A stretch of DNA of 64,000 bases, from the NCBI GenBank assembly GCA_964527235.1, contig CAZGNC010000001.1, positions 170,344-234,343 of the forward strand, read 5' to 3'. This document shows, piece after piece, positions 4,329 through 58,134 of the stretch (position 1 is the stretch's first letter; each line of letters begins with the position of its first letter). Both the position numbers and the translations under genes were made by a program. This DNA is from an uncultured Candidatus Saccharibacteria bacterium. GTDB lineage: Bacteria; Patescibacteriota; Minisyncoccia; Phycocordibacterales; UBA9973. Below the pieces are notes generated by a model, which saw only the letters and a list, made by a program, of their open reading frames with translations, did not search any database and had not been told where the DNA came from.

Positions 4329-5456
4329 CTAGCCGAGTTTCAGGTCGCCTTGGGCTTTAAGCTTTGAGGGTTTTATGATGTTTTTCTTGTTTTGGCTGTA
4401 TCTCAAGTACCCGACCATGCCAATCATTATAGAGTTGTCGCGGGAGAGTTCTTTGGTGGGTATTAGTAGGCTTTTGCCTTTAGTTATTTTCTTGAGCTCT
4501 CTTTTTAAATGCTTATTCGCCGAGACTCCACCTCCGACTATAAGAGTTTCTGCCTTGTACTCGTCGATTGCTTTCTTGGTTTTGTAAACTAGTGTTTCTA
4601 CTACCGCATTTTCGAATTCCATTGCAACTTTAGATTTATCTACACTTGGGTTATCTTTTAGAAAATACAGTACAGCCGTCTTGAGCCCAGAGAAAGAAAA
4701 GTCCAAGTTTTTACTTTTTAGCATTGGGCGGGGAAAAGTAAAAGAAAAATCTTGCGTTTCAAGAGTACGGATATTTTTCTGCTGAAAAATTCCTCGTGCT
4801 CGCGCCGTCGCGCTCCCAAGTCTCTTGAAACGCAAGATTTTTCTCTGAGATTCAGCTAGACGTGAAATATGTGCTCCGCCTGGGTAGGGTAGTCCCAACA
4901 TGCGTGCCACCTTGTCATAGGCTTCACCCGCAGCGTCGTCTAGGGTCTTGCCTATGATTTTGTGTTTTAGGTTTTTCTCAGTGAGTACGAGCTCTGTGTG
5001 GCCTCCAGATACAAGCAGAGAAAGAACAGGGAGCTTCATCTTGTTGATAGTGAAGGAGCCTTTATTTTTGCCAAAAACTGAGAAGATGTGACCTTCCATA
5101 TGGTTGACTGGGATTATCGGGACACCCCACTTCTTCGAAAGTTCTTGAGCGAACACTATACCGGTCCAGAGTGCGGGCTCGAGACCTGGGCCATAAGTCA
5201 CAGCTATTAGATCAACTGGTTTAGATTTTTTGTTCAGCTTGCTTTGTTTGAGAACTTTTTCGAGAAGTATCGGTAGATTCTTCGTATGTTCCTTTTTAGC
5301 CAAAGCAGGGAAGACTCCACCGTACTCTGCGTGGATTGTTTGAGACGCTAGTGAGTCGGCAAGAACTTTATAAGAAGGCTTCGTGAGCCCACCCTTTGCT
5401 TCTAGTATTGTTATGCCTGTATCATCACAGGAGGTTTCTATTGAAAGTATTTTCAT
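4329..5456 (-). CDS. tsaD: tRNA N6-adenosine threonylcarbamoyltransferase TsaD (Kae1/Gcp), carrying a ~33-aa in-frame insertion
   Basis: 375 aa; Kae1/TsaD motifs HMEGH, GGVSANK and DFSFSGLKTAV; extra segment between ISRLA and FPRPM coincides with the palindromic element at 4745-4842. Confidence 0.85.
   Translation of the reverse strand: MKILSIETSCDDTGITILEAKGGLTKPSYKVLADSLASQTIHAEYGGVFPALAKKEHTKNLPILLEKVLKQSKLNKKSKPVDLIAVTYGPGLEPALWTGIVFAQELSKKWGVPIIPVNHMEGHIFSVFGKNKGSFTINKMKLPVLSLLVSGGHTELVLTEKNLKHKIIGKTLDDAAGEAYDKVARMLGLPYPGGAHISRLAESQRKILRFKRLGSATARARGIFQQKNIRTLETQDFSFTFPRPMLKSKNLDFSFSGLKTAVLYFLKDNPSVDKSKVAMEFENAVVETLVYKTKKAIDEYKAETLIVGGGVSANKHLKRELKKITKGKSLLIPTKELSRDNSIMIGMVGYLRYSQNKKNIIKPSKLKAQGDLKLG
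4745..4842. repeat. ~98-bp palindromic element, copy A, in-frame inside tsaD; perfect 21-bp terminal inverted repeats flank a ~58-bp conserved core
   Basis: IRs aaaaatcttgcgtttcaagag (4745-4765) / ctcttgaaacgcaagattttt (4822-4842); core acggatatttttctgctgaaaaattcctcgtgctcgcgccgtcgcgctcccaagtctc recurs near 48289. Confidence 0.6.
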
Positions 5457-6909: not shown

Positions 6910-6947
6910 GTGATAAATTATACCAATTTCTGTATATAAAAGACGTA

Positions 6948-6976
6948 GCCCCGCGGTAGCAGGGCTACGCGCGGGG
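6948..6976 (-). terminator. GC-rich hairpin plus T-run on the minus strand (terminator of the 56-aa island gene)
   Basis: gccccgcggtagc-agg-gctacgcgcgggg followed on the minus strand by cgtctttta. Confidence 0.45.
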
Positions 6977-6988
6977 CTGGTGATCAGA

Positions 6989-7159
6989 TCAACGCCAGTG
7001 TGCCTGGCCGTTGTAGCCACGGCGTTCGAGCGCGCGGCCTTCGTCTGGGGGCATCTTGAATGCGCCGAGGCTGGTGTAGGCGGTTGCCACTTCAGGTCGT
7101 GGCTGTTCGCCTGGGATGGTTGGCACGACCTTGTTTTCGGATGTGGTGCTGTCGGACAT
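6989..7159 (-). CDS. hypothetical small protein (56 aa) in GC-rich island 1
   Basis: SD GGAGGA 6 nt upstream of ATG; TTGACA-N18-CATAAT promoter upstream; hairpin terminator downstream; no family recognised (MSDSTTSENKVVPTIPGEQPRPEV...). Confidence 0.4.
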   Translation of the reverse strand: MSDSTTSENKVVPTIPGEQPRPEVATAYTSLGAFKMPPDEGRALERRGYNGQAHWR

Positions 7160-7202
7160 TGTGATCCTCCATGGGGAACGGGGTGGGGGTGTTCTGTGCT
7201 CA

Positions 7203-7262
7203 ATTATGCATATATAAGTACATATTGTCAAAGCTTGCCAAGTGGCGAAAAGAGTGTATAAA
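7203..7262. promoter_or_regulatory. divergent promoter region of island 1 (minus: TTGACA-N18-CATAAT; plus: TTGCCA-N16-TATAAA)
   Basis: AT-rich 60-bp gap between two divergent GC-rich ORFs; overlapping -35 elements tgtcaa/ttgcca. Confidence 0.35.
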
Positions 7263-8853: not shown

Positions 8854-8969
8854 AAATTTAGTGTTATTTAATTTATTATTAATAAATAATTTTATAATAT
8901 GTAAAAAATGATGTCAATTTATCTAAACACCAGTAGAAGTCAGAATGTTGCAAGATACAATAAAATTTT

Positions 8970-9047
8970 GAGTGCTTCGCACGCAGAGTTTGTGTGGGCC
9001 ACAATAATTTGCTCGTCGTCACTCGCAAATTTTCCAGCCCCGGACTC
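8970..9047. repeat. conserved 78-nt block, copy 1 (3' side of tRNA-Glu-TTC)
   Basis: gagtgcttcgcacgcagagtttgtgtgggccacaataatttgctcgtcgtcactcgcaaattttccagccccggactc; 77/78 identical to 30749-30826; further similarity at ccgtcttcacaaa. Confidence 0.5.
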
Positions 9048-9096
9048 AGTTGTTTTTCTTGCTAGAAAAACATACTTCCGTCTTCACAAAGCACAG

Positions 9097-9124
9097 AAAA
9101 AGAGCACAGCAGTGTGCTCTTTTT
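9097..9124 (-). terminator. bidirectional intrinsic terminator hairpin after tRNA-Glu
   Basis: aaaaa-gagcaca-gcag-tgtgctc-ttttt: perfect 7-bp stem with A/T runs on both sides. Confidence 0.6.
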
Positions 9125-9139
9125 CATGTACGTGCTTTG

Positions 9140-9211
9140 TGACCCCACAGAGAATCGAACTCTGATTACCGCCTTGAAAAGGCGATGTCCTAACCGTTAG
9201 ACGATGGGGCC
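9140..9211 (-). tRNA. tRNA-Glu (anticodon TTC)
   Basis: Reverse complement GGCCCCATCGTCTAACGGTTAGGACATCGCCTTTTCAAGGCGG...TTCGATTC...TGGGGTCA folds as a cloverleaf with anticodon loop TTTTCAA. Confidence 0.85.
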
Positions 9212-9279
9212 GTATGGCCAAGTGTTTTACTTAGCAGAAATATAATAACATTTTTTATCTAAATTGCAAAAATGCGAAA

Positions 9280-28928: not shown

Positions 28929-28949
28929 AATTTCATAGTATGAATAATC

Positions 28950-28975
28950 AAAAAGCCCCATTGTTGGGGCTTTTT
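28950..28975. terminator. bidirectional intrinsic terminator
   Basis: aaaaa-gcccca-ttgt-tggggc-ttttt. Confidence 0.6.
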
Positions 28976-28988
28976 GATTGGGATGATC

Positions 28989-30682: not shown

Positions 30683-30748
30683 GACCGAATTGTATCACAA
30701 TCATTAAAAATAGAAGATTTAGAAATTGGGGTCAGGTACTATTTATTT

Positions 30749-30826
30749 GAGTGCTACGCACGCAGAGTTTGTGTGGGCCACAATAATTTGCTCGTCGTCA
30801 CTCGCAAATTTTCCAGCCCCGGACTC
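30749..30826. repeat. conserved 78-nt block, copy 2 (3' side of tRNA-Glu-CTC)
   Basis: 77/78 identical to 8970-9047; same orientation and same position relative to its tRNA-Glu. Confidence 0.5.
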
Positions 30827-30909
30827 GGCTATTCACGTACTCGTGAATTATGCCTCCGTCTTCACAAAACGCTCATAAATAAAGCAGTTTATTTACTTTG
30901 CGCGTTTTG

Positions 30910-30981
30910 TGACCCTACAGAGAATCGAACTCTGATTTGATCCTTGAGAAGGATCCGTCCTAGCCGTTAGACGATAGGGCC
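30910..30981 (-). tRNA. tRNA-Glu (anticodon CTC)
   Basis: Reverse complement GGCCCTATCGTCTAACGGCTAGGACGGATCCTTCTCAAGGATC...TTCGATTC...TAGGGTCA; anticodon loop TTCTCAA. Confidence 0.85.
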
Positions 30982-31087
30982 ATATAAAACATCTAGACCT
31001 ATCGTCCTGAAAACCTGAACGGGCGATAGGCCCAATAAGGAAAAGATAACATTTTTAAAATAAAAATCAAAAGCAGGGAAGGTGTGT

Positions 31088-48040: not shown

Positions 48041-48259
48041 ATGAAAAAAGAGATACACCCAGAATTTAATACTAAAACTACAGCTACCTGTGCTTGCGGA
48101 GCTACTTTTCTAGTTGGTTCTACTGCAAAGGAAATAAAGATGGAAATCTGCAGTAACTGCCACCCTTTCTATACAGGAAACGAAAAAATAATGGATACTA
48201 CAGGACGAGTTGAGAGATTCAACAAGCGTAAGGCTGCAACTGCTAAGGCTAAGAAGTAG
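48041..48259 (+). CDS. rpmE: 50S ribosomal protein L31 (zinc-ribbon type A)
   Basis: 72 aa; MKKEIHPEF...CACG...CSNCHPFYTG. Confidence 0.85.
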   Translation: MKKEIHPEFNTKTTATCACGATFLVGSTAKEIKMEICSNCHPFYTGNEKIMDTTGRVERFNKRKAATAKAKK

Positions 48260-48265
48260 ATACCT

Positions 48266-48364
48266 TCTAGATATACTTTTCTGGAGCACGGATATTTTTC
48301 TGGTGAAAAATTCCTCGTGCTCGCGCCGGTCGCGCTCGCAAGTCTCCCAAAAAGTATATCTAGA
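48266..48364. repeat. ~99-bp palindromic element, copy B, intergenic between rpmE and prfA; perfect 15-bp terminal inverted repeats flank the same ~58-bp core as in tsaD
   Basis: IRs tctagatatactttt / aaaagtatatctaga; core acggatatttttctggtgaaaaattcctcgtgctcgcgccggtcgcgctcgcaagtctc (about 55/59 identical to the tsaD copy). Confidence 0.6.
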
Positions 48365-48376
48365 GAATACTTATAC

Positions 48377-49342
48377 ATGGATTTAGACGCACTTAAAAAA
48401 GATCATCGTACAAGCTATCTCGCAGAAATGTTGGAGAAACTTTTGCGTGAAGAAGCAGAAGTGCGTGAGATGCTTGCAAGTGACGACACTCTACACGAAA
48501 TGGCTGCCAAAGAGCTCAAGTATATCCAAGAGCAAAAGGACGGAGTAGAGAAACAAATCCAAGATATTTTAGATAAAGATAAAGAGGAGGAAGAATTCCC
48601 CAATGAAATAGTGCTCGAAGTTAGAGCAGGCGCTGGCGGAGACGAGGCCTCGCTTTTTGCATGGGAGATAGCTCACATGTACGAGAAATATGCTGAAAAG
48701 CAGAAGTGGGACTGGAAGACCAACTATGAGTCCAAGAGCGACATCGCTGGCTACAAAGAGGCGAGTTTTGAAATACGAGGCAAGGACGTTTATAAAAAGA
48801 TGCGTTACGAGACTGGCGTGCATCGCGTGCAGAGAATCCCTGCAACTGAGAAGAATGGTAGAGTCCATACCTCGACTGCGTCTGTGGCTGTACTACCGAT
48901 AAAGAAGAAAGTAAACTTTGAAATAAATCCTGCTGATATAGATATGGAGTATTCTCGTTCTGGTGGTAAGGGCGGGCAGAACGTGAACAAAGTCGAGACT
49001 GCAGTTCGCCTGATTCACAAGCCTACTGGCATAGATGTGCGTTCTACTAATCAACGCAGTCAGATGGCGAACCGCGAACAAGCTATGAATATTCTATTAG
49101 CCAAACTTTCGGCTTTAAAAGAAGAAGAGGAGGCGAAGAAGTATGCCGGTGAACGAAAAGGCCAGATCGGCACAGGGGACAGATCAGAGAAGATTCGAAC
49201 CTATAACTTCCCCCAAGACCGTCTAACCGACCACAGAATCAAGAAATCTTGGCATAACCTACCTAAAATCATGGAAGGCGATATGGGTGAAATCATAGCT
49301 TCTGTTGAGTCTGGCGAAGTAGGTAGTGAAGACGAGGAGTAA
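48377..49342 (+). CDS. prfA: peptide chain release factor 1
   Basis: GGQ motif ([11 protein letters not shown]); PAT tripeptide (RF1-type PxT); start at MDLDALKK, downstream of the palindromic element and not at the track's 48317. Confidence 0.85.
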
Positions 49343-49842: not shown

Positions 49843-50018
49843 TTTCTTAAATTAGATATTAAAACAAAAAATCGCTCTAAGTTTCGGCTTGGGCGATTTT
49901 TTGTTTGCTCAAATCAAGATTTTTTGGTATAGTTTTTTGACTGCGTTTGTAGTTCCCTCGGCCGTAGCCTATGGGCGAGGCAGTGGTAGTATTTGAGTTT
50001 TTATCGAAAAATAAGTTT

Positions 50019-55119: not shown

Positions 55120-56490
<1,371 letters not shown>

Positions 56491-58092: not shown

Positions 58093-58134
58093 AAGAGAAA
58101 CCGCCTAAAGAAGCGCGGTCGCTTCTCTAGGCGG
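58093..58134 (-). terminator. hairpin terminator oriented for the minus-strand island-8 gene (its stop codon lies inside the stem)
   Basis: ccgcctaaagaagcg-cggtc-gcttctctaggcgg (one mismatch); on the minus strand followed by tttctctttt. Confidence 0.5.

What the first reader, a model, noticed from the sequence alone, without database searches (positions are those of the whole stretch)
4745..4842. ~98-bp palindromic repeat element present twice: once intergenic (rpmE-prfA) and once apparently in-frame inside tsaD, like Rickettsia palindromic elements
Seen in sequence. A ~58-bp core, acggatatttttct..gaaaaattcctcgtgctcgcgcc.gtcgcgctc.caagtctc, occurs at 4767-4824 and at 48289-48347. It contains an internal hairpin, atttttc-tgNt-gaaaaat, inside an outer gagcacg/cgtgctc stem. 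In both copies the core is bracketed by perfect terminal inverted repeats, but the IR sequences differ between copies: 21 bp, aaaaatcttgcgtttcaagag, at tsaD and 15 bp, tctagatatactttt, at the intergenic site. The tsaD copy falls between the conserved ISRLA and FPRPM motifs and leaves the Kae1/TsaD reading frame open (375 aa against roughly 335-345 aa typical). A ~33-aa peptide is therefore predicted to be inserted into an essential tRNA-modification enzyme. In-frame insertion of palindromic mobile repeats into coding sequence is established for Rickettsia RPEs and for some cyanobacterial and Neisseria elements. I am not aware of it being established for CPR-like genomes. The differing TIRs may mean the core targets pre-existing palindromes or that the TIR is generated on insertion.
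Basis: partly seen in the sequence, partly recalled or inferred. Interest (0 to 1): 0.65.

Follow-up and report, generated by a model that had tools for sequence, protein, structure and literature searches.

The report
Structured palindromic repeat invading CPR genes
The two look-alike ~100-bp palindromes in this window belong to a large repeat family, absent from Rfam and from the literature I could search, that is found only in ultra-small "candidate phyla radiation" bacteria, sits between genes or in frame inside essential enzymes such as TsaD, and can flip in place.

Summary
Two copies (4743-4844 inside tsaD; 48266-48364 between rpmE and prfA) share a 53-54-nt core closed by different long inverted arms.

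A 19-mer of the core found over 100 further copies in about 78 Patescibacteria species genomes. It found none in viral contigs, and no Rfam family matches.

The core folds as a three-way junction. 95.7% of cells form pairs, against 76.7% in shuffles, and 29 of 31 pairs show double changes. Non-Watson-Crick positions in the arms are G.U or G.A on one strand only (85 vs 14, p=1e-13), whatever the host gene's direction.

About 30% of copies lie inside long ORFs of housekeeping genes (TsaD, PheT, IscS-like, DnaE, UvrD, MnmA, TGT, PGM). They occur in both orientations and in all five stop-free frames.

108 of 120 TsaD relatives carry an insert at the same loop and 12 do not. Pairs 92-98% identical elsewhere differ by presence, absence or whole-element inversion. 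At rpmE-prfA the closest relatives have the stop and start codons abutting.

Best reading: a selfish, RPE-like repeat that is translated when it lies in a gene. It has an unusual build (conserved centre, locus-specific arms) and is probably handled as single-stranded nucleic acid. The mobilising enzyme and the origin of the arms are unresolved.

The parts
4743..4844 (-). tsaD copy of the repeat (arms plus core). It is 102 nt, or 34 codons, and is translated in the tsaD frame as RKILRFKR-LGSATARARGIFQQKNIRT-LETQDFS. The strand that matches the structure model is the window minus strand, which is tsaD sense.
   Evidence: I1; 104.2 bits, E=4e-30 at 4753-4835 minus
4743..4765 (.). Left arm of the tsaD copy, AGAAAAATCTTGCGTTTCAAGAG. 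It is 100% complementary to 4822-4844.
   Evidence: I1
4822..4844 (.). Right arm of the tsaD copy, CTCTTGAAACGCAAGATTTTTCT. The outer AGAAAAA/TTTTTCT also exists as a native inverted repeat (the RK and FS codons) in an insert-free tsaD (L205).
4767..4820 (-). Conserved core of the tsaD copy. It holds the three-way junction with hairpin P2 (4769-4793, loop UGCU on plus / AGCA on minus) and hairpin P3 (4801-4812, CGCG-CCGT-CGCG).
4329..5456 (-). Host gene tsaD (tRNA t6A transferase), 375 aa. Residues 208-238 are extra relative to solved TsaD structures. In the model, pLDDT falls below 50 only at 214-234 and at the C-terminus.
48266..48364 (-). Intergenic copy (arms plus core), 99 nt, between the rpmE stop and the prfA start. 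The modelled strand is the window minus strand, which is antisense to both neighbouring genes.
   Evidence: I6; 94.2 bits at 48274-48357 minus
48266..48286 (.). Left arm of the intergenic copy, TCTAGATATACTTTTCTGGAG.
   Evidence: I6
48344..48364 (.). Right arm of the intergenic copy, CTCCCAAAAAGTATATCTAGA. It has two mismatches to the left arm. These are C.A and T.C on the plus strand, that is G.U and A.G on the minus strand.
48288..48342 (-). Conserved core of the intergenic copy, with P2 at 48290-48314 and P3 at 48322-48334.
48041..48259 (+). rpmE (ribosomal protein L31), the upstream neighbour. In the closest relatives its stop codon abuts the prfA start codon (TAAATG).
48377..49342 (+). 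prfA (release factor 1), the downstream neighbour. The ATG at 48377 is the likely start.

Best explanation
Both loci are copies of a previously undescribed, Patescibacteria-wide family of small (about 85-125 bp) structured palindromic repeats that behave as selfish DNA.

Each copy has two parts:
- A conserved 53-54-nt core that folds, on one particular strand, into a three-way junction. P2 is 10 bp with one bulge and an AGCA loop. P3 is a short G+C hairpin with a GACG-type loop. The junction bases are conserved.
- A long closing helix, P1, whose inner 10-15 bp are semi-conserved and whose outer 10-20 bp differ at every locus.

Shown here:
- Copies are gained, lost and inverted at the DNA level. 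They survive only where they do no harm: in the short spacers after stop codons, and in frame in tolerant loops of proteins.
- Five of the element's six reading frames are free of stop codons, so genic copies are simply translated as a 25-35-residue excursion, as in tsaD here.
- The arms can mediate inversion of the whole element in place, which explains both orientations at one site.

Inferred:
- The strand-specific G.U/G.A tolerance and the stem covariation mean the element is recognised or propagated as single-stranded nucleic acid of one polarity. Most likely this is ssDNA handled by an unidentified strand-specific enzyme of the HUH/Y1 or recombinase type.
- The locus-specific outer arms would arise either from insertion at the apex of local inverted repeats or terminators, or from hairpin-templated extension after insertion.
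For: Family and distribution
- The 19-mer scan gave 118 loci, of which about 107 are true copies in about 78 species genomes. All are Patescibacteria lineages or generically labelled MAGs. The 11 other hits are chance matches in G+C-rich genomes.
- Some 8-kb loci hold 2-3 family members.

Structure
- 95.7% of cells are paired, against 76.7% in shuffles and about 50% when partners are slid. 29 of 31 pairs have changes on both sides.
- P2 variants include UUUUUC/GAAAAA, UUUUUU/AAAAAA, UUUUCU/AGAAAA, UUUCCU/AGGAAA and UUUUAA/UUAAAA.
- P3 variants include GCGC, GGCC, GGCU/AGCC and GCAC/GUGC, with a GACG-type loop kept in most of these variants (GUCG in L127, GGCG in one L080 copy).

Strand polarity
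- With orthologous copies removed, the arms show A.C 85 against G.T 14 on the core plus strand (p=1.4e-13). 48 copies have more A.C than G.T and 4 the reverse. The remaining mismatches are mostly T.C or C.T.
- On the minus strand these are G.U and G.A. The bias holds in every genomic context.

DNA-level insertion, loss and inversion
- At rpmE-prfA, eight relatives with PrfA 76-85% identical have abutting or overlapping stop and start codons. Other relatives have a plain terminator, or long-armed palindromes with this core or a different one.
- In TsaD, 108 of 120 relatives are filled and 12 are empty.
- P0043 (filled) and P0093 (empty) are 92% identical elsewhere. In the filled allele 96 nt replace 21 nt.
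- P0085 and P0045 are 95% identical elsewhere. Inverting the L206 element turns the alignment score from -19 to +15 and reproduces KKKIFFAGTP.G.GPRT..IFQQKN.DP.
- At the IscS-like site the arms are homologous in host sense while the core is inverted.

Translation rather than splicing
- 30 of 106 copies are spanned by frames open for at least 40 codons on both sides, and all five stop-free frames are used.
- The hosts are full-length PheT, TsaD, IscS-like, PGM, UvrD, DnaE, TGT, MnmA, Dus and MPG.
- No split genes were seen at tightly flanked copies.
- The insert maps between residues 192 and 193 of 8iey_A and is the only internal low-confidence stretch of the model.
Against: - No transposase, RAYT-like or recombinase gene was found next to any copy that I inspected, nor among the 44 of the window's 65 ORFs of at least 90 aa that I scanned or otherwise identified (39 Pfam-scanned). 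Mobility is therefore inferred from polymorphism only.
- There are no conserved terminal inverted repeats and no consistent target-site duplication. A TCGCT-like direct motif flanks only about 20 copies.
- The core is identical at synonymous sites between TsaD genes only about 65% identical in protein. This could reflect purifying selection for a host function rather than recent spread. The exact 19-mer bait also inflates apparent conservation.
- The arms of orthologous copies are conserved roughly like their host genes, so some copies are old.
- Whether the folded strand is RNA or DNA cannot be told from sequence alone.
- The origin of 25-31-bp arms inside genes is unexplained.
Confidence: 0.68

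Rival explanations
1. It is a functional structured nucleic-acid module, RNA or ssDNA, kept by the host. Candidate roles are a protein-binding site, a processing or stability signal, a terminator-like 3' element, or a priming or recombination signal. On this reading the core is conserved by purifying selection at each locus rather than by recent copying.
For: - The core is nearly invariant, including at synonymous positions, in TsaD genes about 65% identical in protein.
- Covariation is strong and the junction and loop bases are conserved.
- Wobble tolerance is strand-specific.
- Intergenic copies sit 0-45 nt after stop codons, and the nearest upstream gene is co-oriented with the core plus strand in 39 cases against 22.
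- The outer arms resemble bidirectional terminators in composition, for example L006 AAAAAACCGGCCAG...CTGGCCGGTTTTTT.
Against: - The folded strand is antisense to the host mRNA in about half of the genic copies and in most tandem-gene spacers (+|+ 25 against -|- 10). No conserved promoter is present.
- The same site can be empty, filled with a different core family, or inverted in near-identical hosts. That is turnover, not maintenance.
- No Rfam family matches.
- A host function needed inside a dozen unrelated enzymes in either orientation is hard to picture.
Confidence: 0.2
2. It is an ordinary MITE: an internally deleted insertion sequence moved in trans by a transposase that recognises its terminal inverted repeats and makes a target-site duplication.
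For: - It is small, palindromic, multi-copy, non-coding and mostly intergenic, and shows insertion polymorphism.
- About 20 copies are flanked by a TCGCT-like direct motif that could be a duplicated target.
Against: - The termini are the least conserved part. Outer arms are shared only between orthologous sites and one paralogous group, 9 pairs among 101 copies.
- Profiles aligned on the arm boundaries show no terminal consensus. Adjacent direct repeats are 0-1 nt in 69 of 88 copies.
- The conserved part is the asymmetric centre.
- No parent element was seen.
Confidence: 0.08
3. It is removed from the transcript as an intron-like or RNase-processed element, so the extra peptide is never made.
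For: - The long P1 helix would bring the flanking coding sequence together.
- CPR genomes are known for unusual insertions in rRNA genes (my own knowledge, not tested here).
Against: - Every genic copy keeps the host frame and avoids the one frame that contains a stop. All five open frames are used.
- 108 of 120 TsaD relatives are full-length through the insert.
- There are no split genes.
- Both orientations occur at one site, and an RNA-level signal would not survive inversion.
- No ribozyme or intron family matches.
Confidence: 0.03
4. The tsaD segment is just a lineage-specific protein loop that happens to resemble the intergenic sequence.
For: Most TsaD proteins of this clade are long at this position.
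Against: - The same nucleotide core occurs in intergenic DNA and in at least 11 other genes, in five reading frames and both orientations.
- The inserts of close TsaD relatives are unrelated as peptides but related as DNA.
- 12 of 120 relatives lack the insert.
Confidence: 0.01

Closest known systems
Rickettsia palindromic elements (RPEs)
   Same: - Repeats of about 100-150 bp with stem-loop potential.
- Many copies in a small, reduced genome.
- A large share is inserted in frame in unrelated housekeeping genes and predicted to be compatible with the protein fold (PMC10969869).
- No associated transposase is known.
   Different: - A different phylum, with no sequence relation tested or expected.
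- Here the conserved part is a central three-way junction and the arms are locus-specific.
- Here there is covariation and strand-specific wobble.
- The same site is reused, and the element flips in place, in close relatives.
- Five reading frames are used, rather than one conserved peptide per family.
Bacterial MITEs (Correia/NEMIS, ERIC, RUP, bcr1 and others)
   Same: Small, non-autonomous, palindromic, mostly intergenic and sometimes intragenic. They can act as or overlap terminators.
   Different: MITEs are defined by conserved terminal inverted repeats and target-site duplications inherited from a parent IS. Both features were tested here and not found.
REP/REPIN elements mobilised by RAYT, and IS200/IS605-type palindrome-associated elements
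   Same: - Recognition of folded single-stranded DNA of one strand.
- Imperfect hairpins with G.T mismatches.
- Location just after genes.
- No terminal inverted repeats or duplications in the usual sense.
   Different: - REPs are 20-40-nt hairpins with a conserved GTAG/CGTC head, and in a REPIN the conserved parts are the arms and the loop varies. The layout here is the opposite.
- No Y1/HUH gene was identified.
- These comparisons rest on my own knowledge of those families and on PMC3733652.
Coding palindromes in Nematomorpha mitochondrial genes (PMC6649704)
   Same: Long, near-perfect inverted repeats embedded in functional protein-coding genes and translated on both arms.
   Different: Those palindromes encode conserved parts of the protein and have no shared mobile core. 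Here the palindrome is an added excursion built round a dispersed conserved core.
Integron attC sites
   Same: Recombination sites recognised as folded single strands. Structure is conserved more than sequence, with strand selectivity and lengths of 57-141 nt (my own knowledge).
   Different: attC sites conserve the outer R/L boxes and vary in the centre, and they lie in cassette arrays next to an integrase. Here the centre is conserved, the copies are dispersed, and no integrase context was seen.
Hairpin-targeting mobile elements (IS1397/ISKpn1 into REP loops; class C group II introns after terminators)
   Same: They are precedents for insertion at or into pre-existing stem-loops. Such targeting would explain locus-specific outer arms and the position after stop codons (my own knowledge).
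   Different: Those are autonomous elements with their own enzymes. Hairpin targeting is only weakly supported here: a native 7-8-bp repeat at the tsaD site, but no palindrome at the empty rpmE-prfA junctions.

Membership tests
Rickettsia palindromic elements | Multi-copy palindromic repeat of about 100-150 bp found both between genes and in frame within protein-coding genes | tested here: met
   There are 106 tabulated copies of 84-166 bp. 30 are spanned by long open frames in housekeeping genes.
Rickettsia palindromic elements | Sequence membership in an RPE family, with Rickettsia as host | not tested
   No RPE library is available here. The hosts are Patescibacteria, so the claim is 'works like an RPE', not membership.
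MITE | Terminal inverted repeats conserved among copies | tested here: not met
   Outer arms are unique to each locus. Only 9 pairs among 101 copies are similar, and all are orthologous or one paralogous group. There is no consensus at the arm boundaries.
MITE | Target-site duplication of fixed length | tested here: not met
   Adjacent direct repeats are 0 nt in 36 copies, 1 nt in 33, and 2 nt or more in 19 of 88. No fixed length emerges. A TCGCT-like motif flanks about 20 copies but is not general.
MITE | Parent autonomous IS with the same ends | not tested
   No transposase was found among the 39 window ORFs scanned. No search for a split core around a gene was possible.
REP/REPIN-RAYT | A 20-40-nt hairpin with a conserved GTAG/CGTC head, with conserved arms and a variable loop in the doublet | tested here: not met
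   Conservation lies in the centre and decays outwards. There is no terminal tetranucleotide.
REP/REPIN-RAYT and IS200/IS605-type elements | Activity on one folded DNA strand | tested here: inconclusive
   The arms tolerate G.U/G.T and G.A on one strand only, 85 against 14. This fits single-strand recognition, but RNA and DNA cannot be told apart.
REP/REPIN-RAYT and IS200/IS605-type elements | A Y1/HUH transposase gene in the genome | not tested
   This needs whole genomes and a phyletic comparison.
Integron attC | Conserved R''/L''...L'/R' boxes at the ends, in a cassette array next to intI | tested here: not met
   The ends are variable, the copies are dispersed, and the neighbours are housekeeping genes.
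Described structured RNAs and ribozymes (Rfam 15) | A match to a curated covariance model | tested here: not met
   Only tRNAs reach the gathering score in the window. The best E-value over the intergenic copy is 1.6.
Self-splicing or processed intron | The host reading frame need not be kept, and the element is removed from RNA | tested here: not met
   The frame is always kept and the stop-containing frame is never used. Both orientations occur at one site, and there are no split genes. Removal from RNA itself cannot be tested here.
Intrinsic terminator | A short G+C-rich hairpin followed by a T run at a gene end | tested here: inconclusive
   The outer arms of many intergenic copies look like bidirectional terminators, and T is enriched just 3' of the arms at 52%. 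Genic copies and the 53-nt core are not explained by this.

The most novel reading that the evidence does not exclude
This is a new class of prokaryotic mobile element defined not by its ends but by a single-strand-folded three-way-junction core. The core sits at the apex of a locus-specific hairpin and is propagated through a strand-specific ssDNA (or RNA) intermediate by an enzyme not yet recognised. It repeatedly homes to the same permissive loops of essential genes and flips there, giving CPR bacteria a built-in source of peptide-loop variation in core enzymes.
Probability: 0.3. Interest if true: 0.85.

Novelty: new variant of a known kind. Interest (0 to 1): 0.72.

Why it matters
- CPR/Patescibacteria genomes are among the smallest and most streamlined known and are usually described as poor in mobile DNA. 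Here a repeat family, together with at least one sister family, peppers them. It invades essential information-processing enzymes (TsaD, PheT, DnaE, UvrD, MnmA, TGT, IscS-like) without breaking them.

- It is only the second clear case, after Rickettsia, of large-scale in-frame colonisation of housekeeping genes by palindromic repeats, and it occurs in an unrelated lineage that is also reduced and host-dependent. That makes the link between genome reduction and such elements testable.

- For annotation, these inserts inflate protein lengths, create spurious 'lineage-specific loops', and can break assemblies and alignments.

- For mechanism, the inverted layout (conserved centre, variable arms), the strand-specific wobble and the in-place inversion point to an unknown single-strand-based process.

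- The covariance model built here gives a direct handle for finding the partner enzyme by phyletic correlation.

Tried and rejected
- Rfam, at gathering and at permissive thresholds: no family matches.
- Viral contigs scanned with the core 19-mer: 0 hits.
- Literature: six full-text searches found nothing on palindromic repeats in CPR genomes.
- Third copy at 56313-56334: a chance 18/22 match inside atpD.
- Hammerhead-like core: compared by eye with the CUGANGA/GAAA consensus, which does not fit.
- Own promoter: no -35/-10-like pair is conserved on either strand (by inspection).
- Target-site duplication and terminal consensus: none is general.
- Inverted duplication of the target flank as the source of the arms:
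  - Not supported at rpmE-prfA, where empty sites have abutting stop and start codons and nothing resembling the arms.
  - Undecidable at tsaD, where both arm ends overlap native-like RK and FS codons.
- Pre-existing palindrome as the target:
  - Partly supported at tsaD, where the empty L205 has AGAAAAA...TTTTTCT.
  - Cannot explain 25-31-bp arms in PGM, MnmA or DnaE.
- L119 (P0003, 82% identical) as an empty site: it keeps remnants of both arms and possibly TCCGT of the core, so it looks like a deletion derivative rather than a virgin site.
- Split genes at tightly flanked copies: none. The elements sit between a stop and the next start, sometimes overlapping the stop.
- Simple in-frame inversion of the L206 core to reproduce P0069: this failed. 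Inverting the whole element including the arms reproduces P0045.
- DNA for P0033 and P0069 could not be fetched.
Full report
**1. The observation**

- A 23-nt piece of the core occurs exactly twice, and 0 times in 100 dinucleotide shuffles.
- The tsaD copy has perfect 23-bp arms at 4743-4765 and 4822-4844, separated by 56 nt.
- The intergenic copy has 21-bp arms at 48266-48286 and 48344-48364, 90% complementary and separated by 57 nt.
- Both fold far better than shuffled controls on either strand, with z of -6.6 to -8.9.
- The full tsaD palindrome is 102 nt, or 34 codons. The minus-strand ORF 4329-5456 (375 aa) reads through it as RKILRFKR-LGSATARARGIFQQKNIRT-LETQDFS.
His 'gagcacg/cgtgctc' helix is not the pairing the family supports.

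**2. It is a large family restricted to CPR bacteria**

  - About 107 are true copies with the full core.
  - They come from about 78 assemblies named Paceibacterota, Nomura-, Taylor-, Yonath-, Giovannoni- or Moranii-bacteria, Minisyncoccia or Patescibacteria group, or carrying generic MAG labels.
  - The other 11 hits are bare 19-mers in G+C-rich genomes.
- Several genomes have many copies. One has at least 8 loci.
- A covariance model built from 101 copies found about 20 further diverged copies in the same 8-kb loci, with up to three per 8 kb.
- That model finds only the two copies in this window.
- No Rfam family matches. The core is absent from viral contigs.
- Six literature searches found no description.

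**3. Anatomy**

- The core, (C/T)ACGGATATTTTTCTGCTGAAAAATTCCTCGTGCTCGCGCC(A)GTCGCGCTC(G/C)CAAG, is nearly invariant in the baited set.
- Conservation decays outwards through a semi-conserved inner arm (ttttNNagagc ... gtctctNNaaaa) to arms that are unique to each locus.
  - Outer arms are shared only by orthologous sites and by one paralogous group in a single genome.
  - P1 is formed by the arms.
  - An extended P3 runs UUG.G..CGCG-loop-CGCG..C.CGA.
  - P2 is GGA/UCC, one bulged A, and 7 bp closed by an AGCA loop.
- On 118 model-aligned copies:
  - 95.7% of cells are standard pairs, against 76.7% in shuffles and 46-60% with slid partners.
  - 29 of 31 pairs show changes on both sides.
- Diverged members change the P3 stem (GCGC, GGCC, GGCU/AGCC, GCAC/GUGC) and usually keep a GACG-type loop. 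They change the P2 stem and usually keep the AGCA loop.
- Caveat: the 19-mer bait fixes 19 core columns, and the alignment was fitted to the model.

**4. A strand polarity that ignores the host gene**

- In the arms, with orthologous copies removed and all non-Watson-Crick pairs scored alike, mismatches on the core plus strand are A.C 85 times and G.T 14 times (binomial p=1.4e-13).
  - 48 copies have more A.C than G.T, and 4 have the reverse.
  - Most remaining mismatches are T.C or C.T.
- Read on the other strand, these are G.U(T) wobbles and G.A pairs, the best-tolerated non-canonical pairs.
- The bias appears in every context: genic sense, genic antisense, and tandem, convergent and divergent spacers.
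- The few single-sided changes in P2, P3 and the U.G pair of extended P3 point the same way.
- I infer that one specific strand must fold, independently of host transcription. In this window that strand is the minus strand for both copies.
- That argues for an ssDNA intermediate, or for an RNA made independently of the host gene. No conserved promoter is visible.

**5. Where the copies sit**

- Of 106 copies, 30 are spanned by a frame open for at least 40 codons on both sides: 13 sense and 17 antisense to the core.
- The rest lie in spacers, typically 0-45 nt after a stop codon and sometimes overlapping it.
- Host genes:

| Host gene | Copies and notes |
|---|---|
| PheT | seven genomes, same site |
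| TsaD | seven or more genomes, same site |
| class-V aminotransferase (IscS-like) | four copies, same site, both orientations |
| phosphoglucomutase (PGM) | two copies |
| UvrD-type helicases | three copies |
| DnaE, TGT, MnmA, Dus, MPG, a SAM methyltransferase | one each |

- The core has stop codons in only one of its six frames, and all five open frames are used.
- No split genes were found.

**6. The tsaD site**

- Against solved TsaD structures, residues 1-207 and 239-369 of the window protein align without a break in the target. Residues 208-238 have no counterpart (8iey_A 192|193).
- An AlphaFold2 model built with 28 relatives has mean pLDDT 83.8. The only stretches below 50 are 214-234 and the last five residues.
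- Among the best 120 homologues (57-93% identical), 108 have an insert of at least 26 residues at this same position and 12 do not.
- The inserts are translations of one of the following:
  - this core antisense (LGSATARARGIFQQKNIR);
  - this core sense ([20 protein letters not shown]);
  - related cores (GTPQGDGPRTEQIFQQKNCDP, SIAQADEPSIANFQQKIMRAES, GRNFSAEKFTQSSGRRPAE and others).
- Insert class does not follow the TsaD tree. Only 51 of 120 nearest neighbours share a class.
- The decisive pairs are these:
  - P0043 and P0093 are 92% identical outside the loop. One is filled and one is empty, and 96 nt replace 21 nt.
  - P0085 and P0045 are 95% identical outside the loop. Inverting the whole L206 element, arms included, gives ...RKKKIFFAGTPQGDGPRTD*IFQQKN*DPARNDFSF.... 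This aligns with P0045 at a score of +15, against -19 without inversion.
- At the IscS-like site the arms are homologous in host sense (KKGKVGFLE / RKTGKNGILE; SKNPALPVFH / SKTLLLPLFH) while the core is inverted.
- So elements are gained or lost and flip in place on short time scales.
- An insert-free tsaD (L205) has a native AGAAAAA...TTTTTCT repeat, made by the RK and FS codons. This corresponds to the outermost part of the window's arms.
- L119 (82% identical, 351 aa) looks like a deletion remnant.

**7. The rpmE-prfA site**

- In 80 loci encoding PrfA relatives, eight close ones (76-85% identical) have the rpmE stop abutting or overlapping the prfA start (TAAATG or TAATG).
- Others carry a plain terminator hairpin.
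- Others carry long-armed palindromes of 100-150 nt. These have either this core (L127, L125) or an unrelated core with a CCTCGG motif (L122, L124, L132, L163, L190).
- The window copy is therefore an insertion of about 117 nt. Its arms have no counterpart in the empty sites.

**8. What it is and how it probably works**

*Shown:*
- It is a dispersed, structured, strand-polar palindromic repeat family of Patescibacteria.
- It is inserted at the DNA level in spacers and in frame in tolerant protein loops.
- It shows presence/absence and inversion polymorphism.
- It is read through by the ribosome wherever it lies in a gene.

*Inferred:*
- It is selfish DNA propagated through a folded single strand by an enzyme I could not identify.
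  - No transposase-like domain appears among the 39 window ORFs that were Pfam-scanned.
- The arms mediate inversion.
- The outer arms come from local inverted repeats or terminators, from hairpin-templated extension, or from both.

*The main rival:*
- The core could be kept for a host function.
- That fits the extreme nucleotide conservation.
- It does not fit the turnover, the indifference to orientation, or the antisense polarity.

**9. Comparison with known elements**

- Functionally the closest are the Rickettsia palindromic elements (PMC10969869). The behaviour is the same, but the host, sequence and layout differ.
- It fails the defining tests for MITEs: no conserved terminal repeats and no fixed duplication.
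- It fails the tests for REP/REPINs, because conservation is central and not in the arms.
- It fails the tests for attC sites, because there are no conserved end boxes and no cassette array.
- It shares with the REP and IS200/IS605 elements the signature of one-strand folding.
- Coding palindromes of nematomorph mitochondria (PMC6649704) are an analogy for translated hairpins only.
- I rate it a new variant of a known kind.

Noticed in passing
window 6945-7215 (minus strand): A G+C-rich island in a 42% G+C window. It holds a 56-codon ORF (MSDSTTSENKVVPTIPGEQPRPEVATAYTSLGAFKMPPDEGRALERRGYNGQAHWR). A TTGACA...TATATATGCATAAT promoter-like stretch and GGAGGA precede it, and a GC-rich hairpin plus T run follows it. 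The mechanical ORF list fuses it to the uracil-DNA glycosylase gene as a 128-residue N-terminal extension. No Rfam match at E<=0.1.
   Followed up: partly
window 8967-9215 and 30746-30985: A block of about 250 nt is present twice. It includes an 88-nt segment 95% identical between the two copies and, next to it, two different tRNA genes (9140-9211 and 30910-30981, 80% alike). Its nature was not determined.
   Followed up: no
window 9053-9070: An isolated hairpin, TTTTTCTTGCTAGAAAAA, has the same stem type and the same AGCA/UGCU loop as P2 of the repeat (11.5 bits to model positions 46-63 only). It has no core or arms around it. It could be a relic or a member of another family.
   Followed up: no
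L122, L124, L128, L132, L163, L190 (rpmE-prfA region of relatives): A second family of long-armed palindromes has a different conserved centre (motifs CCTCGGA / GGTCC..CCTCGG). It occupies the same spacer in other relatives, so the 'conserved centre, variable arms' layout is not unique to one family.
   Followed up: partly
L026, L037, L041, L046, L056, L074, L102, L113 and about 12 others (just outside the arms): A direct, not inverted, TCGCT(C)/CTCGC motif flanks the arms on both sides in about 20 of 100 copies. It could be a preferred target with duplication, or the ends of a larger unit. Several right flanks continue as CTCGCTTAGA or CTCGCTTAAT.
   Followed up: partly
L090 3009-3114; L111 near 128; L007 7657-7752; L017 3803-3911: These family members carry small extra hairpins nested inside P2 or P3, for example CCTGCCTGTCCGGTAGGCAGG inside the 3' strand of P2 in L090. 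The elements can therefore themselves be insertion targets, or can expand.
   Followed up: no
L020 1530-1613 and 1650-1732: Two family members lie in tandem, each followed by the same direct repeat of about 50 nt (CCAAAGGCTCGCTTAGA...AAAGCTCAGT).
   Followed up: no
protein P0118 (TsaD homologue, 423 aa) and P0105, P0072: The same TsaD loop carries two elements in tandem (a sense-frame copy followed by an antisense-type copy) or an extended insert of 83-111 residues. The loop therefore tolerates much longer excursions.
   Followed up: no
L042 and L068; L047 and L080: These pairs of distant genomes have a copy downstream of the same orthologous gene. The arms are unrelated, and in L042 and L068 the orientation is opposite. 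This fits site reuse or in-place inversion in spacers as well as in genes.
   Followed up: partly
window 28946-28979, 49862-49906, 9096-9125, 58100-58134: Perfect 13-15-bp palindromes of the type A-run, G+C stem, T-run (bidirectional terminator-like) lie at gene ends. They resemble the outer arms of many intergenic copies of the repeat in other genomes.
   Followed up: no
window 56313-56334: An 18/22 match to the 3' part of the core lies inside atpD (coding VARARKIQ). I judged it to be chance.
   Followed up: yes
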